A program made the translations under genes and the position numbers. Shown in pieces: positions 279-64,000 of a DNA stretch of 64,000 nt (position 1 is the stretch's first letter; the number at the start of each line of letters is the position of its first letter). The stretch covers positions 1,054,001 through 1,118,000 of the forward strand of contig OZ237738.1 of the NCBI GenBank assembly GCA_965178125.1, in the 5' to 3' direction. The DNA comes from Bilabrum cf. latius (lineage: Eukaryota). A model generated the notes under the pieces. That model saw only the letters and a program-made list of their open reading frames with translations. It ran no database searches and was not told the DNA's origin.

Positions 279-3032
279 ATGCCCTGGGCCCCGATTCGTT
301 CGCTACAGTGGCTTGCCCTGTCCGGCTTGCTCCTTGGCATAACCAGCGACAATCTTGCCCAAGGAATAGAGTGGCCTTCTTCGCTGTCTGACGTTACGCA
401 ACGTAAGATCGACAGCAATAGATTGCTTGGATCAGGTGTGATGCGTTCTTCATGCTGCCAAACGGCCGTGTGTCTCGTATTCTTGAGTATACCCGCAGTG
501 TTTCAACCAACGGACGCGAAAACCTGCCAAGCGCCAGGCTCTGGTCATTGGGATGGGCTGCCCCGAACAAGCATAGCTGCCAATATTGCGCCATAGCTGC
601 AGTGCGCGGCCCAATCTGCATGGTGAGCAGTTGATGGTGTGGACCAACGTGTAGATTCAACATCGCACCGCCGAAGCCCGTCGCGCCCTTTTACAGTCCA
701 TAAAGCCGCAGGGACATGAAGAGCCCGTTCACCGCTGTTGTGTTGCATAGCGTGTGGCCAGAGGCCGGAATCATGCTTACCAGGTCTATTGCAACTGCCG
801 CACTCGCCAAAGCTGGCGATGATCGCGAGCGCAGCTCGTTCGGCCAATCAGCGCCGGACCACATGGCCTTTGCAGCATTTGAGTGAGCCTGTTTAGATAA
901 ATGGTATGCTTGCCTATGATTCGTATTGTCTGTCTGGCCCTGTAGGACTCATTTTCTCCAGCTTCCATTTCGGGGAATGTCCACCCCTGTCTGCAACCAA
1001 AATCGCGCGGATGACCCATTAGTACCCCCAAACGAGCGCACCACATCCAATTCCCGTCCGCAGTGTGCTTCCTGGATCCACTGGAAGGCAGCAATCTCAG
1101 ACGCTGCTCAGGTTAGAGAGCCACCTGGCAACCGCGACCGCAGCGTGCGGCGGGAGCGCGGTGGTGGCGCTGCACGGAGCCGACAACTTGGGGCCGCGGG
1201 CGGCTGGCAGACTGGCTGAAATCGTGCTGATGTACTCGAGTGCATCGCATGATGGTGCATCCAGTGAGAGTCAAAGGGTCAGCAGCTGGCAGCAAGGAGC
1301 TGGAGATGCTTGCCGCGTCGCGGCCGCTGGTGGCAGCACTAGGCTTGGTGATGGTGACGAGGACCCGTACGACGAGCAAGATTTGGAAGATGCTGATGCT
1401 GATGCTGATGCTGCATCGAGCTCTGGGTCGAGGCGCGCAGGAGCCCGACCACAGAACCGGGTCCTGCTGCTTCTCACTGCCGCTGCAGGCGCCGGCCAGA
1501 TTCGGCAGCACTACCATGCGATGCACCGCGCCGTTTTGCTCCAGGCTGAGATCAACAGCACAGTTACAGCGGCACGGGCCTCTTCTTCTTCTTCATCGAC
1601 CTCTGGCCTGGCCCCGGAGGCACAGCAGGCGCTGGCCAAGGCTCGGGATGATGCAGCGGCCCACCTGTCGGCACTGCGGGATTCGCTCCCGCGAGACCTG
1701 CACAGGGCATTCTGGGCCCAGCACCAGGCGATGCGGGAGGGTGGAAGCGCGGGGGCGGTCGCCTGGCGGCAGCTGGCAGGCCGGTCCCTGTCTGTCCCTG
1801 TCCTGACCCATCTGCCCTGGGCCCCCGCTGCTGTGGCGCTGGGACTGCTGCGGCACGTCGCGGACTCGGAGTCAGAATGGAGCCGGGGCATGACGAGTGA
1901 CAAGCGCGAGCTCAGGCGCTGGGACCAGCTGGACCTCGGCCCGCTGCCGATGGCTGCCTCGGCGCTGGGAGGGTACCCGTGGCAGCAGCTGGAGCGGGTC
2001 CGGGAGCATGGGACTAGCGGCGATGCCGGCAATAGCTCGGACAGCGGATATGGCAGTGTCTTCGTCACAGCTCTGCCACCGCCCTCCAGGGGTTTGACCC
2101 TGTGCTTCAGCGGGAAATGCGGTGACGGGCTGCCTTCCCCCTCGGGCACAGGGAGCGGGTCCGGGAGAGACTTTGTGCTGCGCGCCACGGGGGTATCTGC
2201 GGGGTGGATCGGGGCCGTGACTAGGGAGGGCGATGCGGTGGGGGAGGGGAACATAGGCTCGGAAGGTGCGGGGAGCAGCGGGGCTCGGTCCAGGGAACAG
2301 CACCGGAGGGTGCAGTGCAGGACAGGATCCCCGCTGTGCGCGGTGGCTGCTCTGGTGGAGCTGCTGCGGTGCGAGTTTCCTCCCACGCCTCGCAGCGACT
2401 CCTCTCTGTTCGAGGCGGTGCTGGACCGGCGAGTGGCGCGGGTGGCTTGGAGGAGACCAGAGGGCAAGGCGGCGTGGGTGGGTGCGATGGCGAGGGCGGC
2501 TGCAGCTCTGGGGGGTGAAGAGAACGCAGGTGGGTCTGGGTCTGGGTCTGGTGCTGGTGCTGGTGCTGGTGCTGATGAGAGCGTGCTGTCGGTATGGGGG
2601 GGCTTGGCTGGAGGAGGCGTTGGGACGGAGGGTGGAGTAGAGTGGTAGGCCGAGGGCGAGTTGGGGCAGTTCCTGAGCACTGTGATGCCCGCATTGGGGG
2701 CGAGCATGGGCGCAGGTGAGGGTGAGGCTGGGGGTGGGGGTGGGAGTGCTGGAGAAGGGTCAGGCGGTGGCGGCAATTCTGCAACTGCTTCTTCTGCTGT
2801 AGAGCTGAGTGAGCCGGTGGTGCATCTCCGAGCATGCGTGCAGAACGACATCGAGAGGAGGGACGCACCCTAGTCCCCGGTCTTTAAGGAGGACATCTGG
2901 TTCCCCACGCCGTTCGGGACACTCGTCCCAAAGGGGGTGCAAAAGGGCCTGCCAAGCGAGAGCTGTGGCAAGGTGGCGGCAATGAGGCTGCTAGACAGTG
3001 TGAAGGAGTAGTGCAAGAAAGGGGTCGACTGA
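279..3032 (+). CDS. Hypothetical protein with N-terminal signal peptide; weak resemblance to a degenerate torsin/LAP1-LULL1-type AAA+ fold
   Basis: ORF 1065-2648 reads on through TAG 2646-2648, 2871-2873 and 3009-3011 to TGA 3030-3032. ATG 279 gives a hydrophobic leader (LQWLALSGLLLGI). Probable 5' introns (GTAAG ~403, GTGAG ~623, GTATG ~904) are not resolved. ACGGSAVVALHGADNL and RVLLLLTAAAGAGQI recall torsin ACARSIFIFDEMDKM and KAMFIFLSNAGAERI. The start and exon structure are uncertain. Confidence 0.5.
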
Positions 3033-3180
3033 TCAGATGTTAGGAAGACGTGGTTTTTGCTTCGCGTGACTTGCCAAGTTGTTGTGTGTGCACGCAGCCC
3101 AAGTTAAGCATCCGGAGTCGAAACAGAACGGCGGCTAGGCTAGCCGGGCTTCGACCAGAATCCCGGCGAATAAATCAAGC

Positions 3181-16084: not shown

Positions 16085-16559
16085 GTAGTCAACGAGAGTA
16101 CCTTGCTGATGGGATGCTCGCTGTCTGCCTCAAGAATGCCAAAGCAGTGTCCGATTCGATGGAGGACCGGGATGAGTAGTGATGGTTGGGCAAGGATTGC
16201 AATTAGCAAATTGGCTAACTTGCAACGCCCCCTGCTGCTACACTTCTTCTGTGACGCTACCGAACCGCTGCGCATGGGAGCGGTTGCAACCGTCTGAATG
16301 CATCAGGTTCCTGGGGGTTTACCAGTCGGCTGCAGTGTGCCTTCCACACGGAGCACGAAGATGGGGCAATCCGCTCGAGTTCATGTGAACCCTTTGAATA
16401 CTGCAAGGGATACAATTCCAACGTTCGCGGGCTCTATCAGTCACTTGAACGCAGGTCAGGTTGGGCACGGCCTAGCCGCACTCGTCAGGGCGGTCCGCCA
16501 CGTCGCCGAGTTGGAGGTGGTCGTCACCGACCAGCGGCAGCAAAAACGGGTCCCCTACG

Positions 16560-17417
16560 ATGGCAGCAGCCAGCGACGTGGCGAGCGCCAAGTCTGAAAC
16601 TGCTGGTGGTGAAGAAGATCACTACGTGCACGTTGCTGCGAGCTATGAGAAGGCATATTTCTACGACTAGTCCAACAAGACGTATCAAAACTTCCTTGCT
16701 GACAGCCTGCAAAAGAGCTTGCAATGCAAGCCAGGCCAAGATGTTGTGGATCTAGGGGGCGGAACCGGTCATTTCACGGAATGGTTTGCGTCTAGGGCCG
16801 GAATTGACATCGAAAAGGCTTGTTGCGTTGATCCCTCGGCAGCCATGATCGAAGTAGCTTCCAAGCGAAAAGGACTTGGAACATCGTGCGAGTCAGCCCA
16901 AGACTTCATCGGACACACAGATTTGTAGTACGACCGTTTGTTCTTGAAAGAGGTCGTCCACCACATCCCTTCAGACGAGCTGCAGGAGGTGTTCAACGGC
17001 GTGCAGCGGCAGCTGCGTGACGACGGCCGCATGAGCATTATCACAAGAATGCCGACGTCTGAGCACTATCCGTTCTTCGAGGCAGCTCATAAAGTATGGG
17101 TTGACAACCAGGAGCACTATGACACCTACGCTGACATGCTGCGCAAGTCAGGCTTGGAGGTCGACGTAGCAATCCGAGATTTTGAGGTGCGTATGCCCAA
17201 AGAGGCGTGGATTGGAATGGTGCGATCCCGATTCTGGAGCACCTTTAGCCACTTCAGCGACAAGGAGTTGGAGGCTGGAATCAAAGAGCTCGAGGCTAGG
17301 TTCAAGGGCGAGGAGGAGGTCGTCTTTCCTGACCGACTAGTCTTCATCACTGGAATCAAGGGGCCTGCCAGTGGTACGCTGGACGAGGGGGAAGCAAAGA
17401 AAGTAGGTGGAAAGTAA
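16560..17417 (+). CDS. Class I SAM-dependent methyltransferase (285 aa)
   Basis: Motif I VVDLGGGTGHF, CVDPSAAM, YDRLFLKEVVHH. Two in-frame TAG (FYD*SNK, TDL*YDR) join ORFs 16719-16928 and 16938-17417. Ends in TAA. Confidence 0.88.
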
Positions 17418-25828: not shown

Positions 25829-25850
25829 ATGACAGCCCATTTCCCTGATC

Positions 25851-36405: not shown

Positions 36406-36560
36406 CTTGGCGAAGGTTTGACCTCCACGTCTCGGCTGACGAAAAGACGGCGCCGCGCAGCAGCTAGCGGAACCTGCAAGTCGAGACCGAGCCACTTGGG
36501 GGGGGCAAGCACATGCACCACCCTTCGAAAATGCTACGGCAACGGTATCTGCTCTCTTCA

Positions 36561-38063: not shown

Positions 38064-38216
38064 GTCCTTGTTGAGGTTATGTGCAAGGGGCAAGCGGGCG
38101 CCCTACCCTGGATTCACTGCTCAAACTGCACGCAACCAGCCTCCACGACAACCAGCATTTTGGAGGCAGCTGCATTGAGCAGGAGATCGAGCTTTGTCGT
38201 TTGTATTTTTTCTTAA

Positions 38217-39224
38217 ATGAGCCGGACTGTGTAGGTCTCCGGCCTGACACGAAACGTGCGAGATGGGCACTTAGAAGAGATTTTCAGGTGCTTCGGCACA
38301 GTGGTAAAGGCCGCTGTTGATGTTGACAAGACAGTTTGTTTATCAACAGGAACCGCGTCGGTCTAGTTTGGGTCCATTGAGGAGGCGGAAAGGGCAGTGG
38401 CCCACATGGATGGCGGCTGGATAGATGGCAAAAAGGTGTCTGTGGATGTTGAGTTGTTGGAGCGAAGGAGAAAGACCTTGAGGTCGAGATCTGCATCCCG
38501 CAGCAGGTCAGGGAGCGAATCAAGTGCAAGCAGCCGACATGATAGGTCTGATGTTGATCTGCGCCACGCCAGACGTGCCCCGGCCTCCTCTCATGTCGCG
38601 GACATGGGTACGGACGAGTTTGGGCGACGCGTCGGATAGAGGGCTGGGAGTGGTGCAGGGGCACTGGGCGGCAGAACTAGTGAACGGCGGGAGCAGGATA
38701 GCAGTGGAAGAGGCGCGAGGCACGATCACCGAGAGGTGCGCTCGAGCGCCCGGGACTGGGAGCGTGGAGCAGGTGCTCGGGCTCGCTCTCCCTCGCCGGG
38801 CGCTGCGACTGGTAGTCGCTCGGGGCGAGCAGGTAGAGAGGAAGGAAGGGACTATCGGCGATCTCGCTCACCCATGGACTGGCGCAGAGAGCCCCGTGCG
38901 GGGCGAAGACACACAGGCCGCGATTGGAGGGAGCCTGGAGAGGGGGCGGCTGCCAGTGCAAGGGCGAGGGCGAGGGCGAGGGGGGCTGGCGATAGCACTG
39001 GGGGGCACCTTGATAGGCGCAGCGGCCCGGGGCGGGACTGGGAGTCTGGGCGGGCTGGGTATAGGCAGCACAATTCTCCGGCCGCCCGGATAGGCGAAAC
39101 GTCGCATTCGTCACATGCTCCTGCTTCCAGCAGCAGCTCTAGTTCCAGCTCAGCGACTCGGAGGGCAGCGGATGAGACGCATGGATACGGCAGCAAACCA
39201 GACACATGGAGTCGAGGTACTTGA
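38217..39224 (+). CDS. RNPS1: RNA-binding protein RNPS1/SR45-like (RRM plus RS/RG-rich tail)
   Basis: MSRTV(Q)VSGLTRNVRDGHLEEIF...ASV(Q)FGSIEEAERAVAHMDGGWIDG matches the RNPS1 RRM (LTRNV..HIxEIF..HMDGGQIDG). TAG at 38232, 38364 and 38637; ends in TGA. Confidence 0.85.
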
Positions 39225-39322
39225 CGCTCATACTAAGCGCTTAGATGTTAGTGCAGTCCATGGCAGGCACTTGAGATCCGAAGGATGAATGCCGGCTGAC
39301 CGCAGCAGCAGCCACACACGGT

Positions 39323-42390: not shown

Positions 42391-42518
42391 GCTGTGCCGC
42401 GTACACTGGGTACGAGTATGTGTGCAGATGAGTGTTTTTTCCGCAGTAGGGTGTCATTGGCTCGTCACATCACGCCTCAATCCAGTGGATCAGGCATGTT
42501 CGCTCATTGACCGGGCAA

Positions 42519-44186
42519 TCATTCTACCCCTTCTTCATCCCACGCAGGTCCGACCTCCTGGAACCGCCCCTTGCCCAGCACGTCCTCGAAGCCAGACCGA
42601 CGCAACGGCACCCCCTCCAGCTCAGCCCCGACCAACCGCCCCACCGCCACCCTCCCCTGCGCCGTGCTGTCCCTGCACCGCACCGTCACGGTCCCGTCCT
42701 CCAGCGACTGGTGGTCCACAGTCACGCACAGCGGGGTGCCCACCTCGTCCTGCCTGCGATACCTCCTCCCGATCGACCCGCTCTCGTCCAGGTCTGTCCT
42801 GCACCTGTCCGTCAGACCGGCGTGGATCTGCCGCGCGAGCGCCTGCATCCCCGGGTCTTTCTTGAGTAAGGGAAGGACGGCAACCTGAACAGGGGCCACC
42901 AGCGGGTGCAGCCTGAGAACTTTCCGGGATTGTTCCCCGCCCTTTCCGTCGGGAACAAGGTCCTCCTGGTCAGCGTCGCACATGACTGCGAGCAGCAGTC
43001 GGTTGAGTCCCAGCGCAGGCTCCACAACGTGCGGCCTGACCACTCTCTTCTGGTCCATCGGGTCTCTGAACCCCATGCTCTGGCCCGAGGCCTCCTCGTG
43101 CTTTTTGAGATCGTAGTCGCCCCTGTCGGCGATGCCCCACAGCTCGTCCCACCCGTGGGGATACCTGTACTCTATATCCGTGGTCGCGCTGGCGTAGTGT
43201 GCCAGTTCTTCCCCCGCGTACTCCTTGAGTCTGACGTTATCATCCGAGAGGCCCACCCTCCGACGCAGCCATGCAGTGCACCTGCCCACCCAAGACTGCA
43301 GGTGCTTCGACGATTCGCCAGGCTCCACGAAATACTGCAGCTCCAGCTGCTCAAACTCTCTCGTCCGGAATATAAATCGGTTCGAGTCTATCTCGTTGCG
43401 GAAGCTCCTGCCCATCTGCGCGATGCCCAGGGGCAGGCCCCTCCTTGCGATCCCGGCCACCTGAGGGAACGCCACGTAGGCCCCTTGAGCGGTTTCCGGT
43501 CGCAGAAAAGCCTCCGAGCTAGCATCCTCCAATGGGCCCAGGTGCGTCCGGAATAACAAATGGAAGGGCCGTGGCGTGCCCAGCCCCTTGTCTCCGGGAG
43601 GCGCCCCGCACGCCGGGCACTTGACCTCGAGCGAGCGGAGAAGGGCGCCCTGCTCATCGTAGCCCACGGAATCCAAAGGAGGCAGATCAACGGACCGTTC
43701 CGCCGCGGCGGATTCGATGAGCTTGTCTGCCCTGGCTCGATGGCCGCACGTCGAGCACTGCGACAGAGGGTCCGTGAACTCGTCCACGTGACCGCTCGCG
43801 CGCCAAACCTTCGGGGAAGTGATCACGGGCGTATCGATTCCCATACACTCCGGTCTTCCCTCTACAAAATCCTTCCACCACATGTCGGCTAGATTCTTCT
43901 TCAGCTGTGCTCCAAGGGGGCCATAGTCGTAGCCCGCCGCGCCTCCTCCATACGCCTCAGATCCCTGAAAAATAAAACCCCGTCGCTTGCATAGGTTCAC
44001 AATATCACCGAGAGGGTCAGCTGCCTTGGATCTCTTCTTCTTCTTGCCCTCATTACCAGCTAGTCGGCTCGAAGAGCTCCCAAATCTTCTCCGAGACTGC
44101 TATGATCCGAGCTGGAACGTACCTTGCCTTGTTTCTCGTAATAGCCCCTACATACAGCCTATAACCTACTTTGGTAATCGCCTCAT
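42519..44186 (-). CDS. GARS: Glycyl-tRNA synthetase, homodimeric (alpha2) type, with putative mitochondrial presequence
   Basis: LCKRRGFIF, YDYGPLGAQLKKN, FLRPETAQG, SFRNEI..FIFRTREFEQ, GSIGRRYRRQDEVGTP. ATG 44186 gives an Arg-rich leader containing 3 TAG; ends in TGA. Confidence 0.93.
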
Positions 44187-44304
44187 GGCGACTAGATACT
44201 GTGTTTACTCCTGAAATGCATTTATTATTCATGTTTCCGTGCTGCTCCGGAGCCATATATTTTAGTGCCTTGCGGAGTGCCGAACACAAACAGTAGGTGG
44301 TACC

Positions 44305-45351: not shown

Positions 45352-45425
45352 AAATTAAAAACCGGAAGTATCATCAACTTCCGTGCTCTCTCAATCTTTG
45401 AGCTACTCCGCTATCCAAACTGGCA

Positions 45426-47753: not shown

Positions 47754-47953
47754 CTTGGGGAAACGTTCTCCGCTAGTCTAGCCTACACAGAGCCTAGATC
47801 TGCCTTGCTTTGAGCCGGAGAACCTTCTCTTTCGTCAATCACTGATGAAACCCGCGATGCACACGCCCCCACAGAATTAATCACGAACAGCTCGCACGAA
47901 CAGTTTGCATTTATCGGAAACGCTCACTGGTTGTGCCTGAGACCTTGCGCGCG

Positions 47954-50900
47954 ATGCCAACCGTGCAGGTACGCGGGGTGGATGTGGAGTTCCCATTCAG
48001 CCCGTACACCGTGCAGAATGATTATATGGAGCATTTGGTGGGAGCCATGCAGCTGAAGTCGCATGCACTACTAGAATCGCCGACGGGAACAGGAAAAGTG
48101 AGCAACGCAGCCGCACGAACAGCTGCGGCCGGTCCCACATTTGAAACCGTGCCTGCTGTGACGTCGAGTAGATTTTCTCCTGCACGCAGACGCTTTGCCT
48201 GTTATGTGCCGGTTTGAGCTGGTAGCGCGAATATTGTGCTGCACTTGAGCAAGTTTTGGTGATGAGGCAGCAGCACGGGGTGGGCGGAGAGTCTCGGTTC
48301 GACAGCGCAAACCTGCGTCGCTTGTTGCGGTCTGCTGGCCAAGTAGAATGGATTCAGCCCCCGGACACATCCGGAGAGGCTGGTCTGTCGTTTGCAGGTC
48401 GCAATTATTCGTACGCAGAGCCCGCCAGCGCATCCAAGGACGGACTCTTGCAGACCAACTCTGGAGCAACTGCTCGTGCTGCTCTGCGCGCCACGCTCCG
48501 CGCCGGCCAAGGTCGACCGAAACCGCTGGTAATGCCCTCTAGTGCCCCCGCGTACCAATCGGCCTTATCGCTTCCCGAATCAAGGGGAGAGCCGACGCTG
48601 GGATCGGGCGGGGGCCTTCCGCCGCCTACAGTTGTCACACCTTCGGGCACGCCTTCTCCTGATAGCCTGCGCTACAGCCGCCCGAAGATATTCTACGCCG
48701 CGCGCACGCATACTCAAGTCTCTTAGGTCGTGCACGAACTGCAGATGGCCTCGGGCTACCGCCCCAGGATCGCAGTGCTCGCTTCGAGGGACCGCCTGTG
48801 CGTGCACGAGAAATCCAAGGAGCTCGGGGGCAAGGCGCTCCAGCGGGCATGCACCAAGATGCAGAACGAGGGCAAAGACACGGCCTCGGGGGCCTTTGCA
48901 GCGGACCAGTCGGCGCACCGCAGGCTCAAATTCAGCCGATGCCCCGCGGCCCGGCAGCTGGCGAGCTACCTGGAAATGTACGGGGGTACCCCCAAGGTGT
49001 TCCAGGTGGCGAGGGCCGTGTCGATCGGCGTGGGGGGCAGGCGCAGGCTGCTCCTGCCGGAGGATGTGGGAGCGGAGACAGCGGAGGGAGTCACCGGTCC
49101 AGGGAACAAGTGGGTGAGGGGGCAGGCCGGTGGGGAGGCGGCAGGGTGGGGTGCGGCAGGGGCGCTGGCAGCCGCAGCCATGCGAGGAGGAGGGCCATCC
49201 TCTGCGTCATCCTCGTCTGCATTCGTTGGTATGGACGAGTTTGGGGGCGGTGCCGGCGATGATTTGAACGGTGGACAGGCCGGTGGGTCGGGGCGATCCA
49301 AGGGCAGCTTTTTGGCGAGTCGCCAGCAGAAACCAAGACGAGCGACCGTTGGAAGTGCGCGGCTGGGAACGCGGCCTGCCAAATCCCGAGGTGGGGATAG
49401 CACCGAGGGCAGGGCGAAGGGTGATGGCAAGTCCGGCACCTCGCGAGCCAGGGCTCGCAGGCAGCTTGCAGCCGAGGCGATCGAAGACGGTGTTATGGAT
49501 ATAGAGGACATGCGGGAAGCCGGCAAGAAATCCGGCTTCTGTCCCTTCTACTTCAGCAGGCAGCCCACGACCCTCGAGCAAGCAGACCTGGTGCTGATGC
49601 CGTATTCCTACCTGCTGGACCCCAGCGTGCGGTCCTCGATCCCTGGCCTGCAGGAGCACCTGCGCGGCGGGGTGGTGATCATCGATGAGGCGCACAACAT
49701 CGACAAGACGTGCGCCGAGTCGGCGTCCTTCGACCTAGGGGGCACCCTCATGATTGACTGCGTGGAGGAGCTGCGAGTGGCCACGGAGCGGGCGCTGGGG
49801 CTGGCGGGAAAGTCCCTGCAGCCGGCGCAGGGGCAGGCTGGGACCTCTCAGCTAGACATGGCTGCGCTCACGCAGAAGGCAGCAGACGCTCGCGTGACCG
49901 TGCAGCTGCCCAACCAGCAGGCCGTGGAAATCACGCCGAACCAGCTGTTTGCGCTGCAGCAATCGCTGATGAATTTCAGCCGGTGGGTACAGGGGCACGA
50001 TTTCGGCGGCAAGCCTCAGAACCATAAATTTAAGGTGTACAAGGGCAGCACGATCGTGACTGAGCTAGCCAAGGTGGGCCTCACCCTAGAGGGCTACCAC
50101 TTCAACGACCGCAGCGAGAGGCAGGGCACCCAGGCCAACGCGCTTGAGGCGGCCATCGTGCTGTGTGGGGATGCCAAGGCGGCCTCACTGTTCGCTGCTG
50201 GGTCAGACATGTCATCGCGCACGGCCGACGTTACAGACACGCCGCTGGAGCAGCTGCGTGACATGCTGGACAAGGTGTTTGTGCTGGGAGGGCTCATGGC
50301 CACGTTCATGGAGGAGTACCGCGTTGTGATCCGACCTGAGGTGAAGCCACGGTCCAAGGCGATGATCGCCTCCGCCTCCGGTCTCAACCAGGTGTCGTTC
50401 TGGTGCTTTCGGTCTCACGTGGCCATGCGCCAGCTGCAGGAGCTTGGCGTGCGCTCGGTGATTCTGACGAGCGGGACACTGTCGCCGATGAAGGCCCTGC
50501 AGCACGACCTGGGCATTCCCTTCAGCGTCAGGCTGATCAACCCGCACGTGGTCAGAAAGGACGCGATGCGAGTGGCCGTGCTGGGCAGCGGGCCGAAGGG
50601 AATCGGGCTCAGTAGTAAGTTCAGCAGGCGATCCGACCCGGGGTATCTGCAGGACCTCGGGGCCAGCGTGGTGCAGCTGGCAGCGACCGTTGGTGCTGGG
50701 GGCGTGCTCGTGTTCTTCTCGTCGTACAGTCAGCTGGATTCTTGCGTCACTGCGTGGCAGCAGCAGAACGGGGGCGCGGTTTGGCGCCAGCTCAACATGG
50801 CGAGGCACGTGGTGGTGGAGCCGCACAGCACGGGCGAGATGGACGAGGTCATGAAGAGTTACGAGGATGCCCTCAGCAGCGGCAGGGGTGCGCTTATCAT

Positions 50901-53900
50901 GGCCGTGTGCAGGGGCAAAATCGCAGAGGGAATCAATTTTGGGGACAACAGGGGCAGGTTGGCGATCATAACGGGCATTCCGTATCCGAATTTCACGGAT
51001 ACGTGGGTGCAGGTGAAGCGGAGGTTCCTAGACGAGCAGCTGGCCATGGCGCGCAGGCAATTCGCCATTGCAGCCAAGGGGGCAGGCAGCTCCGACATGC
51101 AGGTTAGAGATCTCCCGCCGTCCGGCTCGGACTGGTACGCCCAGCAGGGCATGCGGGCGGTGAACCAGGCCATCGGCCGCGTGGTGAGGCACAAGGACGA
51201 CTGGGCTTCCGTGGTGCTGGCGGACGAGCGCTTCGCCGAGAATGGCATCGCAAAGGATCTGTCTGAATGGCTGCAGCCCTTCATATACCGTGGTGCAGCC
51301 GGGGGCAGCGCTTCGACGATGGGGCTTGGGTCGGCCGCGCAGCCGTCTGCTGGACTCAAGAAAGAGTACGCAGAGGTAGTCAAAGTGACGCGAGAGTTCG
51401 TGCAGTCGAACCAAAGGCTGGAGAGATCAGCAGCAGCGGGATCCAGCGGCATCGGGGATCAAGTTGCACTGTTCGGCAGGAAAGATGATGATTCGGGTGC
51501 CGCTGCGGGCCAGCAGCACGGGAGAGGTGATCGGGACGGAGCTGGCGATCGAGCGGCGATGAGAGCCCAGCGGGAGCTCGAGGAGCTAGAGCAAGCCAAG
51601 GCCAAGGAACAGACGAGGAAGGCGATTGCCGAGCATCGGGCCAAGCTGCAGGCATCGGCTCCTGCTGGGCTTGCCGGCCTGCTCGGTGGTGCAGCTGGTG
51701 CTGTCGATGACGGCGGGGCCGGTAAAGGGTCATCCAGCTCGTCACAGTCTGCTGCTGCAAGTCGTCAGCAGGGCATGGACTCCAGCAGCGCAAGCGATGG
51801 TATGCTGGGTACCGGAGAATCTGGAGGGTAGATTGATGCCTTTGGTATCGTGCTGCGGGGGCCGAGCGACGCATCTCGCAAGACTAGAGCTTCACAGGTG
51901 GATCCACCTTCCGGGTCACAAGACACTGGGTGCGGAGCATCAGAGAGCCTGCTTGGTGGGGTCCAGCCGGCGAGTGATGCGAGCGACTCTGAGGGCGTAG
52001 CATGTGGCTCTGACGTCGACAGCGACTCGGGGGACGAGGAAGCGAGCAGGGCGGGCAGTGGGAAGTCTCCAGATGCAAAAAGCAGCGCCAGCCAGCGACG
52101 GGCTCCTGCAGCCACGTTGCAGAAGTTACCGGAGGGTGTGGATCACCCTCAAGGCGAAGAGAAACGCCCAGATGGGAGTACGGGCTCACTGAAGTCCCCT
52201 GCAAACGCAGGGCCGGCGGATGTGGACCCCCTCACGAAAGTGAAGCTGGTGCAAGACATGCTGGCGGGGTTCAGGGAGCTGCTCGCAGTCAAGCAGGGGG
52301 ATGCTGAGGAGGTTGCCTAGGCACTTCAACAGAGATATGCTCACTTTAAGGAGGTGCTAAAGTCCTTGTCCAAGGCAGACCTGTCGGTCAGCAGCCAAGA
52401 GGACCCCAAACAGGCCGGAAAGCGCATGCAAGATCTGTTGCTCGTGGTAGGAGTCATATGCGGCCTGCTCCCCCCCGTGGCACTCCCAGTAGGGGATTCG
52501 TTCTCCGAGCTGAGCGATGCCCTGGCAGCTGAGCCTGCCGAGGTGCTCTCCTCGAGGCTGGGCACGCTGAGGGTCCGAGGGCAGTGCCTCAAGCTCTTTG
52601 CCAAATATGCGGCGCTGGGCAGGGCCCAGGGCGTGGGGGATCAAATGAAACACGTGGGCCGGCTGGCGGCAGTCTACTGGCAGTCGAGGCAGGAGCAGCA
52701 GGCTCAGGACAAGGAGCGTGATGCCCAAACTAAGGGAACAGCAGGGGCGGCCCAATCGCGGCCGACTGGCTCGCAGCAACAGCAATAGAGGCACCATCAC
52801 GGATCGATGGCAAGCAACGCAGCTAACGCTGCATATTCATCAAGTACCGTAGCTCTGGCGCGACCGGCCAGCGGAAAGCCACCCTCGATTGTAGGGAAGC
52901 GGCCGAGGGCCGCCATGGATGCTGGCAGCAGCAGCAGCGGGATGCCCGTCACGCAGATTACCGGTGGTTATGCCAGTAATCGTAGCAGAACTACCGGGGT
53001 CGGTAGGAGTCGTGTGGCCAGCGGTAGCGGCAGTAGCAGCATAGGGGCAAGCCAGCGGTTCGGGTCAATGACAGCACCAGGACATGCCCTGGGTCAATCT
53101 GTCATTGACGGAGGCCTCGTCGATTTCGACGCGAGAGAAGAGGCTCGTTTGGCCAAGCGGCTGCGGACCAACGCACGGAAGCAGCAGGAAATCCTGAGGA
53201 TGTCACAGGTAGGCTCATCGTAGGCGGGGCCAATGCGTCCACAGCTGCCGGGCGAGTTGAAGACAGCAAGACAGGGATAGCTTGGATTTGGAGGGGGTGC
53301 AGCGGCCCGGCCTGCCGTAGGCAGCAGGACCGGAAGGCGCGATGGTGCATAGCCCGGGCAGTAGCTAGGCCCGCAGCCGAGTGGTACGAAGAAGGGCAGC
53401 AAAACGAAGCGAAAGGTAACTCCTTCTTCTCGGCGGTCTGCGGCTCTCCTTTCGGCTGCTTCTGGAGCGGGCGCTGCCATGGCGCGCGCGGGATCGAACC
53501 CGAGATAGGGACGGATTGCTGCGGGCATCGCTGCTGGTCTCGCGGGGACCTCTTCAAAGTCTCATGGCCACTCGTCACAGTCCCAAGGCCTCACGAGAGA
53601 CCTAATAACCGGTCGCGTGATTCGGCCCAAGGTACCGCTGGTGCATGGTGCTGTGGGTCGAGTAGAGCGTGCTGCAGACGCTTCAGCTTCAGCAGGCCAG
53701 CACCGGGACAAGGGAAGTTAGAAGGTCAGAAAGATAGATCCGATTGGACGTAGCATTGGTGCGGGTGCAAGTGCTGTCGCCGGTGCTGCGGCAGGTGGGC
53801 TGTTTCAGTACTCGCAGGCAAGCTCGCTGGCAGGTGGCAGTCTGTAGCGGACTGCTCCTGTGGGTGCACCAAAGATGTAGCCCGCTGTGGCAGGGAGTAG

Positions 53901-54105
53901 CCAACTGGAGGGCGATGATGACTCGTGTCCTATTTGCATGACGGGATACCGGTCGCTCGCCGAGCGCGGGGTGAAGAAGATGAAGGCGCGCAGGTGCGGG
54001 CACGTCTGCTGCTCGTCTTGCTGGAAGGGGTGGATCCGGCTCAAGATCGAATGCCCGCTGTGCAAGCAAATTGTGCGGCCCTAGCAACTAGAAGACGCGT
54101 CTTGA
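47954..54105 (+). CDS. RTEL1: RTEL1/FANCJ-family Fe-S DEAH helicase with C-terminal RING finger
   Basis: VEFPFSPY, LLESPTGTGK|TLCLLC..W(Q), RTHTQVS(Q)VVHEL, CPFY, IIDEAHNI, ILTSGTLSP, AVCRGKIAEGINF, RAVNQAIGRVVRHKDDW; RING CPIC..CGHVCC..C..CPLC. Intron 48098-48189; 14 TAG; TGA 54103-54105. Confidence 0.9.
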
Positions 54106-54264
54106 TGCTGATTTACAATGCCTGCAGCATGGTGGCTCAGCATGGTATTGTGTGATGAGTGTACCACACTTGGATCTTTGATGACCTTAAATCCAGACTT
54201 TCTCCCTATATCTGCGGTCTTTGCGACAGATAGACCCACGAGAGACATAAAAGTCAATACAAAT

Positions 54265-55065
54265 ATGTCATCATCGGCTGCTGTGGGAGCAAAACGGGCG
54301 CGAACGGACGGAGCTGGATCGGATGGGCCGGTTGTTCTGCACAGCTACTGGCGGAGCTCGTGCTCGTGGCGAGTGCGGATCTGTTTAGCACTGAAGGGAA
54401 TCCAGTACGATTACAAACCAGTGCATCTGCTGAACGATGGTGGCGAGCAGCTCAAGCCTGCATACGCAGAGAAGAATCCTATGAAGGAACTTCCTACCCT
54501 GGAGATCGATGGCCTTGAGCTTTGTTAGAGCATGGCGATCATCCAGTACCTCGAAGAAACTAGACCCGGGGATTCTGCACTCCTTCCAGAGTCCCCGGCA
54601 GACCGGTACCGCGTCCGTCAGATCTGCGATTCAATCGTGCAAGATACGCAGCCTGTGCAGAATCTTCGTGTGCTCAAGCGCGTGATGGGGTTCTTTGAAG
54701 GCGACGAGAAAACCAAACAGAAGCTAGCTTGGGGTAAATGGGCCATTGAGCTTGGCTTTGATGGAGTCGAGAAGATGCTCGAGAAGTCTGCAGGCAAGTT
54801 CTGCTTCGGAGATGCAGTGACGCTCGCAGACATTGTGCTTGTCCCTCAGGTCTACAACGGCAAGCGGTTCGGAGTGGACTTCAGCAAGTATCCTACGATA
54901 ATGCGAGTTCATGCAGCTCTCGAGCAGCTTGAGCCTTTCAAGCAGGCACACCCGGATCAGATGCCCGACGCGGTCAAGGCAGCGGCGCCAGCGCCAGCGC
55001 CAGCGCTAGCAGCGTCGTCGTCGTCATCGTCGAGCTCCTCCGCAGCCACGGGCGGAGGCCAATGA
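54265..55065 (+). CDS. GSTZ1: Maleylacetoacetate isomerase / glutathione S-transferase zeta
   Basis: LHSYWRSSCSWRVRICLALKG, NPMKELPTLEIDGLELC(Q)SMAIIQYLEE, QPVQNLRVL, HPDQMPD. The single TAG 54526-54528 is at the conserved QS Gln; ends in TGA. Confidence 0.95.
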
Positions 55066-58733: not shown

Positions 58734-61574
58734 TCAGCTGATGGTGCAGCAAAACGAGGCCTTGTCGTCGAATAACTTGTCCATCCCGCCCCCGAACTGT
58801 TCTTGATTCATGAGAAACTCCACAAACTCTGCCTGCTGCGCCTGCAGGTTGGTGGCCTCCCACTCCTCAAAGCGACGGTTCTCCTCGTCGTCAAGAGAAA
58901 CGCTCTCGTTCTCGCCCTCCCGGCCCACGATCGCGTCCTGGCTCGCGGCATTGATGTTCTGGTCAGGCACGAAGGGCGCGTCCAGCTGGCCGGATTCCAT
59001 GAGCCCCCAGTCGATCGGGTCAAACCATGGATGGTCCTTGATTTCCCATATGCCATTCGCACCCAGCCGCTTCCCAGGGTCTCTCTCTAGGAGCCCCTGC
59101 AGCAGCGATGTGCATTCCTTGGAGAAGATCCTCGAGTCGTAGCTCACCTTCATGTGGAGCGTCGCGAGATCGATGGCCCGGTGCCTATCTCGGTGCAGTG
59201 CGCGCGCCTGCTCCGTTCGAAATGGATTCTTGCCGTATATGAACTCGTACAGCACGCACCCATACGACCAGAAATCCGCAGTGTACGTGTAGTACTGCCT
59301 CTTGCCGTTGACTCGGACGAGCATGTCGCCCGGCATGTACCCCCGAGTGCCACACCTGCCCATGAGATAGCCGTGCTTGGGCACGTGCGTGGCCAGGCCC
59401 ATGTCAGAGATCCTGCAGTGGCCTTGCTCGTCTAGCAGCAGGTTCTCTGGCTTGAGGTCTCGATACATGACCCGCATCGAGTGCAGGTGTTCGATCCCCA
59501 GCAGCACCTGGGCCGCATAGAACCGGGCTCGATCCTCCGAGAACCGCCCGGCCCGCTGCAGATGATACGACAGGTCTCCCCCAGTCATACAGTCCAGGAT
59601 TAAATACACGTAGTGGTTGTCCTGGAAGGCATACTTGAGCGATACAACGAACGGGCTGTCCACGCGTCCCAGGACCAGCCGCTCGTTCCAGCATAGATCG
59701 ATGGCCCCTTTCTGCCTGATCCTGTGCTTGCTCATCTTCTTCATGGCGTACAGCTTGCCCGTGTCCTTGCGCTTGCACGCGTGCACAGTGCCAAACCCGC
59801 CGCGGCCCAACACCCGAAGCAGCTCAAAGTCACTGGCTTCGATCCTCTCGCTCAGCTTCGCGCTTAGCCTCATGAACCGGTCGAAGTGGATCGAGGCGCG
59901 GAAACTGGGCCAGAAACGCTCTCTCAGGGCAAAAAGGACCGTGTCACGCAGGGTGTCGAAACAGTGCGACGGCACTCCGTCCAGCAGAGGCGCCTCACCC
60001 TCACCGCCGCTGCTGCTCCCCAAGCTGCCCGCGGGCCGCAGCACGGCTGCATCGTACTCTGCAGTGCCTCCCGCCGATGCCACGGCTACTCTCAGCTGGT
60101 GATCGATCATTCGCACGAGTGCCACGATCACAGGACCGCTCACCAGGATTGGCGATGCGTCGTCCCTGCACCTGCGGAATATATCGGCGGCCGATGCATC
60201 GCCGTCAGTGCTGTCTGCACCCCTGGCAGCACGCCCGGTCGAGGCCCCTCCGCGCGCAGTCTGCCTGGCATCCCTCCCGCTGGTGCTAGCCATACCGAAC
60301 TCAGTCGACGCCGCACCCGCCCCGCCGGGCTTCGCACCACCCACTGCCCGCCCACCTGGGGACAAGGCCGTGGCAGATGACCTCGCGGCAAGCATCGCGC
60401 TGTGGTCCGCGACGGCGGGGCTTCCCATCGCTGAGGAGCCTTCCATCGCCGGGGTCGTGGTGACTGCGGGGCCACGGACCTTCTGACCCGCCGGGCCGAT
60501 CGTCGTGGACTGCGGGTCGCCGCTGGGTCCGACGGCCGTTGAGGTGCATCCGGGCCTTTCGTCCGAGGAGCCAAGGAACCCCCCCGCTTCGGGTTCCCAG
60601 TCCTTCGTGCTAGCTGGCCGCGCTCCGGCCTCCTACTCTACCCAAGTGTCCCCATCCCTCCTACCCTCGTCTGCCTCGCCTATTGATGTGGCGCGCTCCT
60701 GCGCCTCGAGCAGCTTGTCAGCAGGCGGATACTCCCCGGCGTCCGCCTCCCGTTCCGGCTGCGGCTGGCTTCCAGCTCGCAATCCAGCAGCAGTCTAATT
60801 TTCTCTCCTTGCCATTCGCTGGATGTCAATGGATTCGTGGCGAGCACCATCTGCAACGGAAGCGAGTTGGGCCTCTGTCCGCGGACCCTCGCTGAGCTAG
60901 GTGGCAGCCACGGACCCATCCGCTCTTTGCTTGCTATCAGTTTCCAGCTGTGCTGTTGGTAGAGTATCATCATACCCCGACACTGCGCGGCCTTCCTGCA
61001 TGGCAGATATATGCTGGCGGTCCGAGTCCGATAGGGATGGACCCAGATACCTGCTCTTGATGTGGGCCGCTTGTCGTAATCGTAACCCTGGGGTCTCGAT
61101 TACACTAAACGCTTGAACTTCTTCCAGAAATTCAAGCGCAGAAGCATCGGCTTCCCTTCTTAAGTACTCCTTAAACTGCGGAAGAAACGGAAGGAACCGC
61201 TAATGCTGCTCTGTTGGGGCTTGGGAGCATGGTGGTTTCTCGTGTTACTGTCTGAATGGCAACTTTCTAAGTTCTGTTTTTACATCAGGACATTTAAGCT
61301 CTCAATAAGCGGCAGAATATCAGTCGAAGCAGACGTGTCGCACAGATATGTCAGCGCGAATTCCAGCGCCTCTCACCAAATAGTAGCCCAACGGTTCCCC
61401 GATTATTCTTTCAAACTCAAGAGGATGGCCCTGCATTGTCTCGATATTCTGTACGTACCGCTAGGCCTCCTCGCTTGAGGGCAACACCATGGGGGCAGAC
61501 GGTCGAGGGGCATGCGAAATGACTTCGGTGAGGTATCTAGCATCCTGGATAGCATCCTGCAACATGTCCACCAT
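58734..61574 (-). CDS. G-protein-coupled receptor kinase-like protein (alphaN helix, split RGS-homology domain, AGC kinase, C-terminal CaaX)
   Basis: Exon 1 MVDMLQDAIQDARYL..VLPSSEEA(Q)RY..FERIIGEPLGYYL|FKEYL parallels GRK2 MADLEAVLADVSYL..LLPEPS..MQKY..FEKIFSQKLGYLLFRDF. Intron 61176-61376. Kinase GRGGFG, YAMK, YRDLKPEN, ISDMGLA. Ends CCTIS-TGA. Confidence 0.88.
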
Positions 61575-62135
61575 AACAGCTCAGAGAGATCACACAGGCT
61601 GTAACGATAAGGGCAGGCCAATGGGTGTGCTTGGCCAATGGGTGCGCTTGGCCAATGACCGCTAATGTGCAAAACGATCGCAAGTGGAGGTGCCGCGCGG
61701 CGCCCGTGATGAGCGGCGTGGTCAGGCAAGCCGTCACGGTGTGTTTGGCCGACGAGCTAGTATTGCAGGACATGGACCTTCATCATAAGCCCGTCCATGA
61801 GGTGTTCTAGGCTTGGGCCGGGCCATGGCAGCGTTCATGCAGTCTTGGCTGGGGGGTATCTGCGCCCAACCGGGGGTTGCGATCATCGCAAGTCTACTGC
61901 CGCAAATGGTCAAGTAGAGCTATCTACACCAACTGAAATAATCCTTTGTTTGAGGCTTACGTTACTGGCAGCACGCAGACCGACCTTCACATCGGTAGAC
62001 CTGCGTGTATGCCCTTCCATGGCCACTCGCTGCTTGTTGGGTCCATTCAGCAATCCAGAATCCAGAATCCACACGGACAGCGGCGGGTCGCATGAGGCCT
62101 CTCCGCAGGCTAGCTGCATGGGCCATTCCGCAGGC

Positions 62136-64000
62136 TCACGAGCTCGGCAGCGGCCCCCATTTCTAGTTGAACTGAGCCAGGCGGCTCTCCACCTGCTGCC
62201 TGTAGCCTGGGCCGTTTGGCGAGAACACGATCATTCTAGCCACTCCGCTGCCTTGGGCCGGGAAGCTGACCTAGTCCAGCTGCAGCAAGTCTGCCCCGTG
62301 CACCCCCTTGCCCGGAAGCAAGGCCCACTCACTCTGATCCAGGGGGCGCACGGTCGCATTCACGAGCTCGAAAGCGTCCCAGGCATCTCCACCCCGAGCA
62401 CTTGCTCCGCCCTGTGCGAGCATGGCCGGGGGAACAGACACGTTGACGGCCGGCAGTAGGTGCGCCTGCATGTCCCAATGGTAGTCCTGCTGCAGAGCGC
62501 ACAAAAGGTCCGAGTAGTTCCCGTTCTGCTTCAGATTGATCAGGGTCACCAGCAGCGCCTCGTCGTTCCACAGTGCGCTCGCGATCGAATCGGGGTCCCC
62601 CCCGGTTGACACCTGGGCAAGGGGCCACGCCGCTCCCTGCGTTCCCAGGCGGGCCGAATGCAGCGTGCCAGAGGTGCGCACCAGCTCTCGTACGGAGGCG
62701 AGCTGTCGGTTGAAGCGGCCCATGGCCAGCCAGGACGCGGGCCAGAACTGCATCTCGGAGATTTGTGACTGAAAGAGCATCATCCCCTTCCCTCCCGCCG
62801 CGATCACGCTCATGAGCTGAACGGATAGTTCCGCTGGGTCTGGCTGCCGGTGGAATCGGATCGGTCCTATCTTCCCATCCCAACCGTCGTCGAACGCCTG
62901 GGAGTAGAGCCAGGCGGGCCAGGGTGCCTGGTTCGCGGTAGTGGTACGAAGGTAATCGAAGCTGCCACGGAGCCAGAAGGGGCTCGCCCATTCGGTCACG
63001 TGGGGAGCACACGCGGCCACGTAAAAGTCCATCCCTTTGTAGTCCACCGTGTGGCCCCACAACCCCTGGTGCCGGTTGCGAGAGCCCCCCACGTAGGTGC
63101 CAAACCCAGGGTACGCCTTCCAGCTGGTCTGCGAGTGGGCGGCGTCTGGCCGTACATTGTGCGAGTGGTCGTCGGACTCGTCGCCCTGGAAGATGCCAGC
63201 GATCCTGCTGGTGTTCTTCAGCGCTGAAATATCGATCGATCCATCTGCCAGGGCCCAGAAATCGTACTGCGGCGCAAGGGTGCCGGCGATGATCGACCCG
63301 TTCGGGCCCCCGCACTTTGACGCGGATCCCTACGACACGAGGAAGGTATCGATGCCGTATTTCCGGTGAAGTTTGTAGTTCGTGTCGTTGACGGTGGGAA
63401 AGGGGCACTCGCTGGACTTCTGCCAAGCCTCGATGGGAAAAAACTCGAGCAGTGCTCGCCCGCCCGCCACAGCCTCGCCGGATGTCGTGTTCGCGAGCAC
63501 CGTCCACAGGTCCCCACGCTAAAGTGGGCTTGATAGTTTTATAATCCAGAGAGTTTGCTGCCCTGGCGCAAGCGTTCGGCTTGCAGCCGGGACCTGCGAC
63601 AGCACGTCCACCCCGTTCACGTGCAAGCTCTGCAGCTGCGAGTAGCTGGTGACCGTCGAATTCGGCGCCGTGCCGAGGCTGGCGTAGATCAATATCTCCC
63701 CACCCTCATTTCGGGTTGTCACATAGTCGATCGAAACAGCTGCATGGGGATCTTGCGGGGCAAGAATCCTGATTTGCGAGCTTGCCAATGTTGTGCCAGA
63801 TGTTGTTTGCAGCTCAATGGATGTCAATGAGCCAAGTTTTGCCACGGTATCCCACACACTTCTACTAGAGTGTAGCGTGACAAGCACTTGATCTCCAGCC
63901 TGCAGCGCCCCCAGCGGCAAAATGTGGAAAAAATCCACCTCCCAAAGCGATGGATCGCTGCTCGAATTAGTCGTGTTAACTGCTGTTCCATTGATAAGAA
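62136..64000 (-). CDS. Partial (5' end beyond window) protein with glycoside-hydrolase-like TIM-barrel features
   Basis: Frame open from the window end through TAG 63519, ~63330, 62271 and ~62163 to TGA 62136-62138. GIFQGDESD, QPDPAELSVQLMSVIAAGGKGMMLF; many NxT/S sequons. Confidence 0.6.

What the first reader, a model, noticed from the sequence alone, without database searches (positions are those of the whole stretch)
279..64000. Non-standard nuclear genetic code: UAG encodes glutamine
All 25 genes, including normally essential ones, carry in-frame TAG (about 100 by hand count), and the frame and homology continue past them. Where the residue is conserved it is Gln: DDB1 VVSA*KPT (36364-36366; family VVTAQKPT), GST-zeta ELC*SMAI (54526-54528; family QSLAI), RTEL1 LSW*RE (48223-48225) and RTHTQVS*VV (48724-48726; family RTHSQLxQV), GRK EA*RY (61461-61463; GRK2 MQKY). 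The TAG positions are read from the sequence; the family residues are recalled knowledge; the Gln assignment is the inference. The standard code breaks or truncates essentially every gene, so a code-1 annotation of this genome would be badly wrong.
Basis: partly seen in the sequence, partly recalled or inferred. Interest (0 to 1): 0.97.

Follow-up and report, generated by a model that had tools for sequence, protein, structure and literature searches.

The report
Nuclear code: TAG read as glutamine
This stretch of a GC-rich microbial eukaryote's genome uses TAG as a glutamine codon and keeps TGA and TAA as stops, a rare but known code variant that makes any standard-code annotation of it wrong.

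Summary
In 24 long reading frames (17,898 codons) there are 106 in-frame TAG, none of TAA or TGA, and the frames end in TGA (20) or TAA (4). Sixteen frames match Pfam families, and at least 15 TAG lie inside family-aligned stretches.

Where the homologue column is conserved it is glutamine:
- GST-zeta: 5 of 5.
- RTEL1: 128 of 141.
- DDB1 N-terminus: 30 of 41.

A 15-site likelihood puts Gln 12.6 log units above the next residue. A 96%-identical relative has Gln at both DDB1 TAG sites it spans.

Spliced contigs from two other studies carry 27 of the TAG unchanged, so the TAG are neither edited nor spliced out. TAA is not a sense codon: about 25 would be expected and none is seen.

The kind is known: UAG-only Gln occurs in Iotanema and a few ciliates. 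This organism is GC-rich, does not look like a ciliate, and uses TGA as its main stop, so it is probably a new lineage. The tRNA and release-factor basis could not be tested. An excess of TAG just before the stops is unexplained.

The parts
279..64000 (.). Gene-dense, intron-poor, 61% GC eukaryotic nuclear DNA. 24 long frames hold 106 in-frame TAG and end in TGA (20) or TAA (4).
31842..36410 (-). DDB1 gene in three exons, with introns 35859-35955 and 36067-36180 (GTGAG..CAG). In-frame TAG at 36364-36366, 36031-36033, 34158-34160 and 33057-33059. Stop is TGA at 31842-31844.
   Evidence: Pfam. Spliced contig of run X5 with 0 differences. Open spliced frame. Homologue columns. Relative P0001 has Gln at 34158 and 33057. 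Intron ends.
54112..55065 (+). GST-zeta / maleylacetoacetate isomerase gene. TAG at 54526-54528 lies opposite an invariant Gln.
   Evidence: Pfam. Gln in 5 of 5 printed alignments to solved structures.
48145..54105 (+). RTEL1-like helicase with a C-terminal RING, main exon; an upstream exon with the Walker A motif lies before 48145. 15 TAG in the frame. TAG 48724-48726 lies opposite a conserved Gln. TAG 54082-54084 lies 7 codons before the TGA stop.
   Evidence: Pfam. Gln in 128 of 141 homologues. Upstream exon seen in translation. Relative P0055.
36561..38120 (-). SEH1-like WD40 nucleoporin. TAG at 37887, 37740 and 37680 lie inside the propeller. One TAG lies 5 codons before the stop. Tandem stop TAA-TGA at 36558-36563.
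   Evidence: Alignments to solved SEH1 structures. Downstream translation. TAG present in X5 and X6 contigs.
39323..42076 (-). Hybrid histidine kinase with a receiver domain. 12 in-frame TAG. The stop is TAA at 39323-39325, directly after the receiver domain. 5' intron at 42026-42111.
   Evidence: Pfam. Solved-structure alignment. 11 of the 12 TAG lie in the X5 contig. Joint.
38217..39224 (+). RNPS1-like RRM protein. TAG at codons 6 and 50 lie inside the RRM.
   Evidence: Pfam. Alignment to RNPS1 structure 4a8x, where the two sites face His and Glu.
42519..44204 (-). Bacterial-type (glyQS-like) glycyl-tRNA synthetase. The only ATGs upstream of the conserved core are followed by two or three TAG.
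   Evidence: Pfam. Homologues. Codon positions.
16449..17417 (+). Methyltransferase gene with two TAG inside the domain. The stop is TAA at 17415-17417, followed by AT-rich, non-coding-looking sequence.
   Evidence: Pfam. Downstream translation..
58734..61565 (-). GRK-like kinase (RGS plus protein kinase). The upstream exon holds TAG 61461-61463.
   Evidence: Pfam. Translation. No solved-structure match for the exon.

Best explanation
The organism reads UAG as glutamine throughout its nuclear genes and terminates at UGA (mostly) and UAA. This is the code NCBI lists as table 15.

Shown here:
- TAG sits in frame inside expressed, selectively constrained, homology-supported genes.
- TAG stands where homologues and a close relative have Gln.
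- TAA and TGA never occur inside these frames and do close them.

Inferred from established knowledge of other stop-to-sense codes, as set out in the Background section of PMC5304391:
- A tRNA-Gln with anticodon CUA decodes UAG but not UAA.
- The release factor eRF1 has lost recognition of UAG while keeping UAA and UGA.

About 12% of Gln codons are TAG (106 of 864), so the reassignment is complete, not occasional read-through.
For: 1. Frequency. 106 in-frame TAG against 0 TAA or TGA in 24 frames and 17,898 codons. At least 15 TAG lie inside family-aligned stretches.

2. Identity.
- Gln in 5 of 5 GST-zeta alignments, 128 of 141 RTEL1 homologues and 30 of 41 DDB1 homologues.
- 15-site log-likelihood: Gln +8.95, Glu -3.65, Thr -3.67. 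Summed BLOSUM62 score: Gln 17.6, Glu 12.4.
- Calibration: the window's own CAG/CAA codons face a majority-Gln column at 19 of 79 sites, TAG at 2 of 5, all other residues at 43 of 1784. Fisher p = 0.006.

3. Close relative.
- P0001 (1297 of 1355 residues identical) has Gln at both TAG sites in its span.
- P0055 starts M-Q-Q where the window has M-TAG-P, and stops exactly before the window's TAG at 54082.
- P0202 starts at the first Met after TAG 48724.
- These database proteins therefore seem to have been called with TAG as a stop, so their Gln would come from CAG or CAA.

4. Not an artefact.
- Contigs of runs X5 and X6 (two other studies) match with 0 differences and carry 26 and 11 of the in-frame TAG, 27 distinct.
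- The same contigs skip three GTGAG..CAG introns, so they derive from spliced RNA.

5. Selection. 29 of the 38 listed differences to roughly 93%-identical relatives in the DDB1 3' part fall on third codon positions, p = 7e-8.

6. TAA is a stop.
- It closes 4 frames at natural ends.
- About 25 in-frame TAA would be expected if TAA:CAA equalled TAG:CAG, and none is seen.

7. The base after TAG is distributed like the base after CAG, chi-square p = 0.61.
Against: - No protein-level evidence.
- No tRNA gene in the window, no whole genome held, and no eRF1 sequence, so the mechanism is inferred.
- Most TAG sites face variable, non-Gln columns: Ala, Leu and Asn in DDB1; Glu, Lys and Thr in SEH1; Ala, Ser and Thr in the kinase. 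That is normal for Gln codons but leaves few decisive sites.
- The run types of X5 and X6 are guesses, and the tool labels X5 'RNA? (probably DNA)'. Their RNA origin rests on the splice-like joints and on gene-sized contigs.
- The translation table used for P0001 is not documented. I infer it from P0055, P0202 and the missing full-length self-hit.
- The X-to-Q match in P0055 sits next to a one-residue indel.
- TAG is over-represented in the last 10 codons: 5 against 1.3 expected, p = 0.011. This could mean that some TAG still terminate.
- Only four TAA terminators were seen.
Confidence: 0.9

Rival explanations
1. TAG has two meanings. It is Gln inside genes but still a terminator at some gene ends, as in the context-dependent codes of Condylostoma or Blastocrithidia.
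For: - 5 of 22 frames have a TAG within the last 10 codons before the TGA or TAA, against 1.3 expected, Poisson p = 0.011.
- The relative's ORF P0055 ends exactly at the RTEL1 C-terminal TAG.
Against: - The same pattern is expected if former TAG terminators are now read through to the next stop, giving short tails.
- DDB1 and the kinase end directly at TGA or TAA at their conserved C-termini.
- P0055 would end at that TAG anyway if its gene caller treats TAG as a stop.
- The phyllopharyngean UAG-only codes showed no dual meaning (PMC11687900, Discussion passage seen).
Confidence: 0.1
2. Both TAG and TAA encode Gln (table 6 type, as reported for Amoeboaphelidium, ulvophytes and Hexamita). TAA would simply be rare in GC-rich genes.
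For: TAA is the rarest stop triplet in the window, 187 + 181 occurrences on the two strands, and only 4 frames end in it.
Against: - No in-frame TAA in 17,898 codons, where about 25 are expected from the TAG:CAG ratio.
- Reading TAA through adds only flanking sequence.
- After the kinase's TAA the frame would run antisense into the neighbouring gene.
- After SEH1's TAA comes TGA at once, and after the methyltransferase's TAA comes AT-rich sequence that looks non-coding.
Confidence: 0.03
3. TAG is a sense codon for a residue other than Gln, for example Glu, Lys, Leu, Ser or Tyr as in other lineages.
For: Several TAG sites face Glu, Lys, Ala, Leu or Asn in homologues.
Against: - Three conserved columns are Gln.
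- The likelihood gap is 12.6 log units.
- The relative has Gln at 2 of 2 clear sites.
Confidence: 0.03
4. The TAG are not translated: the genes are pseudogenes, the TAG are assembly errors, or they are removed by RNA editing or splicing.
For: None found. It is the default reading under the standard code.
Against: - Identical TAG in contigs of two other studies, including spliced ones.
- Third-position bias of substitutions, 29 of 38.
- 96% protein identity to a relative over 1355 residues.
- TAG occurs in every frame, while TAA and TGA occur in none.
Confidence: 0.01

Closest known systems
Iotanema spirale (Fornicata) nuclear code: UAG = Gln, with UAA and UGA as stops (PMC5304391; abstract and Background section read)
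   Same: The same codon table. UAG alone is reassigned to Gln and UAA is kept as a terminator, in a non-ciliate.
   Different: In Iotanema UAA is the primary terminator; here TGA closes 20 of 24 frames. Iotanema is an anaerobic flagellate. This window encodes an oxygen-dependent 2OG-Fe(II) oxygenase and a bacterial-type GlyRS with an N-terminal extension, which do not fit an anaerobe well. That last point is inference, not a test.
Ciliates with UAG-only Gln: Hartmannula sinica, Trochilia petrani, Protocruzia tuzeti (PMC11687900; passages of Results and Discussion seen)
   Same: UAG = Gln with UAA kept as a stop. Most genes carry an internal UAG (78-91% of genes there; 24 of 24 frames here).
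   Different: Those ciliates use UAA for 87-98% of stops; here TGA dominates. This window is 64 kb of contiguous 61% GC DNA with 86-114 nt GT..AG introns. That this is untypical of ciliate macronuclear DNA is from my own recall.
UAR = Gln codes (NCBI table 6): many ciliates, some Ulvophyceae, Hexamita, Streblomastix, Amoeboaphelidium protococcarum (PMC5304391 Background; PMC6299283 passage)
   Same: A stop codon reassigned to Gln, presumably by a mutated tRNA-Gln.
   Different: TAA is not a sense codon here. Amoeboaphelidium genomes are about 40% GC (table in PMC10608142) against 61% here. No named close protein hit appeared.
UAG-only reassignments to other residues: rhizarian exLh (Leu), Scotinosphaera (Ser), TARA phyllopharyngean MAGs (Leu) (PMC5304391; PMC11687900 passages)
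   Same: The meanings of UAG and UAA are uncoupled.
   Different: The residue here is Gln, not Leu or Ser.
Context-dependent stop/sense codes: Condylostoma, Parduczia, Blastocrithidia (PMC5304391 Background)
   Same: Possibly the excess of TAG near gene ends.
   Different: Dedicated TGA and TAA terminators exist here, and no gene was seen that must end at TAG.

Membership tests
UAG = Gln, UAA/UGA = stop nuclear code (NCBI table 15 type) | In-frame UAG inside conserved, functional genes | tested here: met
   106 TAG in 24 frames. At least 15 lie inside family-aligned stretches. Third-position substitution bias, 29 of 38.
UAG = Gln, UAA/UGA = stop nuclear code (NCBI table 15 type) | UAG positions correspond to Gln in homologues | tested here: met
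   Gln in 5 of 5, 128 of 141 and 30 of 41. Likelihood gap of 12.6. Fisher p = 0.006. Relative has Gln at 2 of 2 sites.
UAG = Gln, UAA/UGA = stop nuclear code (NCBI table 15 type) | UAA still terminates and is not a sense codon | tested here: met
   4 frames end in TAA at natural ends. 0 internal TAA against about 25 expected. The sample of terminators is small.
UAG = Gln, UAA/UGA = stop nuclear code (NCBI table 15 type) | UGA still terminates | tested here: met
   20 of 24 frames end in TGA. DDB1 ends at TGA right after its conserved C-terminus.
UAG = Gln, UAA/UGA = stop nuclear code (NCBI table 15 type) | UAG is present in the mature mRNA (no editing, no splicing around it) | tested here: met
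   27 in-frame TAG lie in zero-difference contigs of runs X5 and X6, which skip three GT..AG introns. That these runs are RNA is inferred from the joints.
UAG = Gln, UAA/UGA = stop nuclear code (NCBI table 15 type) | Cognate suppressor tRNA-Gln(CUA) | not testable with these tools
   No tRNA gene in the window, no Rfam match, no whole genome held.
UAG = Gln, UAA/UGA = stop nuclear code (NCBI table 15 type) | eRF1 altered so that it no longer recognises UAG | not testable with these tools
   eRF1 is not encoded in the window, and no genome is held.
UAG = Gln, UAA/UGA = stop nuclear code (NCBI table 15 type) | Gln found at UAG positions in the protein | not testable with these tools
   Needs mass spectrometry.
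UAR = Gln code (NCBI table 6 type) | UAA also used as a Gln codon | tested here: not met
   No in-frame TAA in 17,898 codons. TAA read-through adds only flanks.
Context-dependent (dual) stop/sense code | The reassigned codon also terminates genuine gene ends | tested here: inconclusive
   TAG is enriched in the last 10 codons, 5 against 1.3 expected, p = 0.011. Relic read-through explains this equally well.

The most novel reading that the evidence does not exclude
This is an independent, so far unreported origin of the UAG = Gln / UAA = stop code in a GC-rich, aerobic, non-ciliate microbial eukaryote that uses UGA as its main terminator. A roughly 93%-identical sister lineage shares the code. 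A class of former TAG terminators is either read through into short C-terminal tails or keeps a context-dependent stop function.
Probability: 0.5. Interest if true: 0.8.

Novelty: new member of a known kind. Interest (0 to 1): 0.7.

Why it matters
Nuclear codes in which UAG and UAA mean different things are rare. The papers read here name Iotanema, three ciliates (all Gln), a rhizarian and ciliate MAGs (Leu), and Scotinosphaera (Ser).

A further case in a GC-rich organism with TGA as the main stop would add an independent data point on how the two codons can be uncoupled. It would also bear on whether GC pressure (rare TAA, frequent CAG-to-TAG transitions) favours capture of UAG alone.

Practically, every one of the 24 frames is broken by the standard code. 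Any table-1 or prokaryote-style annotation of this genome and its relatives yields fragments, as the database proteins P0055 and P0202 show. Completeness and gene-content estimates would be badly wrong.

Tried and rejected
- Whole-genome look-up: none is held, so no search for tRNA-Gln(CUA), eRF1 or rRNA was possible.
- tRNA scan and Rfam scan of the window: nothing found.
- JGI metagenome scan with the relative's DDB1 (P0001): 590 pattern matches, none confirmed.
- GlyRS search, meant to place the organism. The best named hits are Symbiodinium sp. (55%) and oomycetes (about 50%), at the same level as bacteria. No close relative was listed, and no placement is claimed.
- Solved-structure searches with no match: the RTEL1 N-terminal 400 residues, the methyltransferase and the GRK-like upstream exon.
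- Codon-usage scoring to delimit genes used an arbitrary threshold and kept only 9 frames. It was not used.
- Sequencing-run look-up: no RNA holder is listed as such.
- The table of differences to the relatives' contigs was cut: 1301 rows were not shown. TAG versus CAG could therefore not be read codon by codon in the relatives' DNA.
- Amoeboaphelidium considered and rejected as the source: about 40% GC (PMC10608142 table) and no named close hits.
- Selenocysteine- or pyrrolysine-type site-specific recoding rejected: TAG occurs in all 24 frames at about 0.6% of codons.
- Earlier-findings look-ups gave nothing for this genome or its look-alikes. One unrelated giant-virus note came up.
- Literature searches found no report of a GC-rich non-ciliate with UAG-only Gln other than Iotanema. 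Supplements were not seen, and subscription journals are not covered.

Full report
**What the window is.** The 64 kb are 61% GC. They are densely packed with long reading frames on both strands and carry no tRNA or Rfam-recognised RNA. No whole genome is held for the window. I submitted 28 translated frames to Pfam, some of them alternative frames of the same region. Sixteen matched a family above its curated cut-off:
- DDB1
- an SEH1-like WD40 protein
- an RNPS1-like RRM
- a hybrid histidine kinase
- a bacterial-type GlyRS
- a 2OG-Fe(II) oxygenase
- an RTEL1-like helicase with a RING
- GST-zeta
- an RGS-plus-kinase (GRK-like) protein
- MFS, a methyltransferase, SWIB, TPR, TPR-S and LRR proteins, and another WD40 protein

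This is eukaryotic nuclear gene content.

**The observation.** Under the standard stops the longest frame is 1034 codons. With TAG open the longest are 2090, 1986, 1357 and 1236 codons, and opening TAA instead changes nothing at the top.
- In 22 frames I count 101 in-frame TAG. With two more frames the count is 106 in 17,898 codons.
- 88 of the 101 lie downstream of the first ATG of their frame.
- The frames end in TGA (20) or TAA (4).
- At least 15 TAG lie inside stretches aligned to known families:
  - MFS 1, WD40 1, DDB1 1 (plus three more in the alignment), GST-zeta 1, methyltransferase 2 and RRM 2.
  - SEH1 3.
  - Kinase 3.
  - RTEL1 1.
- In GlyRS the only ATGs upstream of the conserved core are followed by two or three TAG. 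No standard-code product could include the enzyme.

**Which amino acid.** I translated with X at TAG, so that the searches could not be biased.
- GST-zeta: the X faces Gln in 5 of 5 printed alignments to solved structures.
- RTEL1 (48724): of 150 representatives found, 141 aligned at the site. 128 have Gln, 6 Lys, 4 His, 2 Asn and 1 a gap.
- DDB1: I used the exon structure seen in a spliced contig (below). This gives one open frame with four TAG.
  - The N-terminal TAG (36364) faces Gln in 30 of 41 aligned homologues.
  - The other three face mostly Ala, Leu or Asn.
- SEH1: the three sites face Gln/Lys, Glu and Ala/Thr.
- RNPS1-like RRM: the two sites face His and Glu in the RNPS1 structure.
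- Kinase: the three sites face Ala, Ser and Thr.
- RTEL1 48223: only 6 sequences aligned, 3 Arg and 3 Gln.
- Over these 15 sites a column-frequency log-likelihood gives Gln +8.95, Glu -3.65 and Thr -3.67. The summed BLOSUM62 score also ranks Gln first, 17.6 against 12.4 for Glu.

As a calibration I used the same DDB1 and RTEL1 alignments. The window's own CAG/CAA codons face a majority-Gln column at 19 of 79 sites. TAG does so at 2 of 5 sites with at least 20 homologues. All other residues do so at 43 of 1784 sites. Fisher p = 0.006. TAG sites therefore look like ordinary Gln sites. The base following TAG is also distributed like the base following CAG (chi-square p = 0.61).

**A close relative.** The DDB1 search returned P0001 from a Logan assembly, with 1297 of 1355 residues identical. 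It has Gln at both TAG sites within its span.
- P0055 (61 of 64 aligned residues identical) begins M-Q-Q where the window reads M-TAG-P, next to a one-residue indel. It ends exactly before the window's TAG at 54082.
- P0202 (90% identical) begins at the first Met after TAG 48724.
- No full-length identical DDB1 appeared.

Together these indicate that the database proteins were called with TAG as a stop. On that reading the Gln in the relative come from CAG or CAA, the relative shares some TAG positions, and it uses the same code. The translation table of those records is not documented, so this step is an inference.

**Not an artefact, not edited, not pseudogenes.** Fifteen public runs from ten studies hold the stretch or a part of it. 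I laid four of them on 31800-51799.
- Contigs of X5 and X6, from two studies other than the best holders, match with 0 differences and 0 gaps.
- They are gene-sized and skip 97, 114 and 86 bases whose ends are GTGAG..CAG on the minus strand. This is the signature of spliced transcripts of DDB1 and the kinase.
- Their run type is only a guess in the record, and X5 is flagged 'probably DNA', so their RNA origin is my inference.
- 26 in-frame TAG lie in the X5 pieces and 11 in the X6 pieces, 27 distinct.
- X10 and X9 hold relatives about 7% different, for example 290 differences over a piece spanning about 4.2 kb.
- Of the 40 difference rows shown (1301 were not shown), 38 lie in the DDB1 3' part, and 29 of those 38 are third codon positions (p = 7e-8).

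The genes are thus expressed and under purifying selection in the TAG-containing frame.

**TAA and TGA.**
- Reading TAA through adds only flanking sequence to any of the 24 frames.
- After the kinase's TAA the receiver domain is complete and the frame would run into the neighbouring gene.
- SEH1 has TAA followed at once by TGA.
- The methyltransferase's TAA is followed by AT-rich sequence.
- If TAA were used relative to CAA as TAG is relative to CAG, about 25 in-frame TAA would be expected. None is present.

The code is therefore TAG = Gln with TAA and TGA as stops. TAG makes up 106 of 864 Gln codons.

**Mechanism.** It is shown that TAG is a frequent, selected, transcribed sense codon equivalent to Gln, and that TAA and TGA terminate. 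The rest is inferred from the Background section of PMC5304391. A tRNA-Gln with anticodon CUA reads UAG without reading UAA, and eRF1 must have lost UAG recognition. Neither could be examined here.

**An unexplained detail.** Five of 22 frames have a TAG 4-9 codons before the terminator, against 1.3 expected (Poisson p = 0.011). These may be former TAG terminators now read through to the next stop, or TAG may keep a terminator role at some gene ends.

**Comparison with what is known.**
- UAG-only Gln is reported for Iotanema spirale (PMC5304391, abstract and Background read).
- It is also reported for the ciliates Hartmannula sinica, Trochilia petrani and Protocruzia tuzeti (PMC11687900, passages seen).
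- UAG-only Leu or Ser occurs in a rhizarian, TARA ciliate MAGs and Scotinosphaera.
- UAR = Gln occurs in many ciliates, ulvophytes, Hexamita, Streblomastix and Amoeboaphelidium (same papers; PMC6299283 passage).
- Those UAG-only lineages terminate mainly at UAA. This window terminates mainly at TGA.
- Amoeboaphelidium is excluded by GC content, about 40% (table in PMC10608142).
- The nearest named proteins are only 29-55% identical, so the organism is not among annotated genomes. I could not place it taxonomically.
- Seven literature searches found no matching report. Supplements and subscription journals were not covered.

**Verdict.** The finding is real, and the reading 'UAG encodes glutamine' is well supported (0.9). 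The kind of code is known. The lineage is probably new to it.

Noticed in passing
last 10 codons of frames 720-3032, 20368-24078, 36561-38120, 48145-54105 and 62136-63998: TAG is over-represented just before the TGA or TAA terminator: 5 against 1.3 expected, p = 0.011. These may be relic TAG stops now read through, or a residual stop function.
   Followed up: partly
window 39224-42515: A contig of the roughly 93%-identical relative in run X10 joins 39224 to 42515 with 117 other letters between. That relative seems to lack the whole hybrid histidine kinase gene.
   Followed up: no
window 27624-27807: A 36-nt tandem repeat, 5.1 copies at 99% identity, lies between two convergent genes.
   Followed up: no
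window 35859-35955, 36067-36180, 42026-42111 (minus strand): Three short introns of 97, 114 and 86 nt with GTGAG..CAG ends, all near the 5' ends of their genes. RTEL1 and the GRK-like gene also have upstream exons.
   Followed up: partly
window 42519-44204 (minus strand): The GlyRS is of the bacterial glyQS type with an N-terminal extension, probably organellar. The nearest named relatives are Symbiodinium sp. (55%) and oomycetes (about 50%), no closer than bacteria.
   Followed up: no
window 36558-36563 (minus strand): The SEH1-like gene ends in a tandem stop, TAA then TGA.
   Followed up: no
window 39137-41137: Contig depth spikes in all four laid runs over parts of the kinase gene, which suggests paralogues or a repeated domain elsewhere in these genomes.
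   Followed up: no
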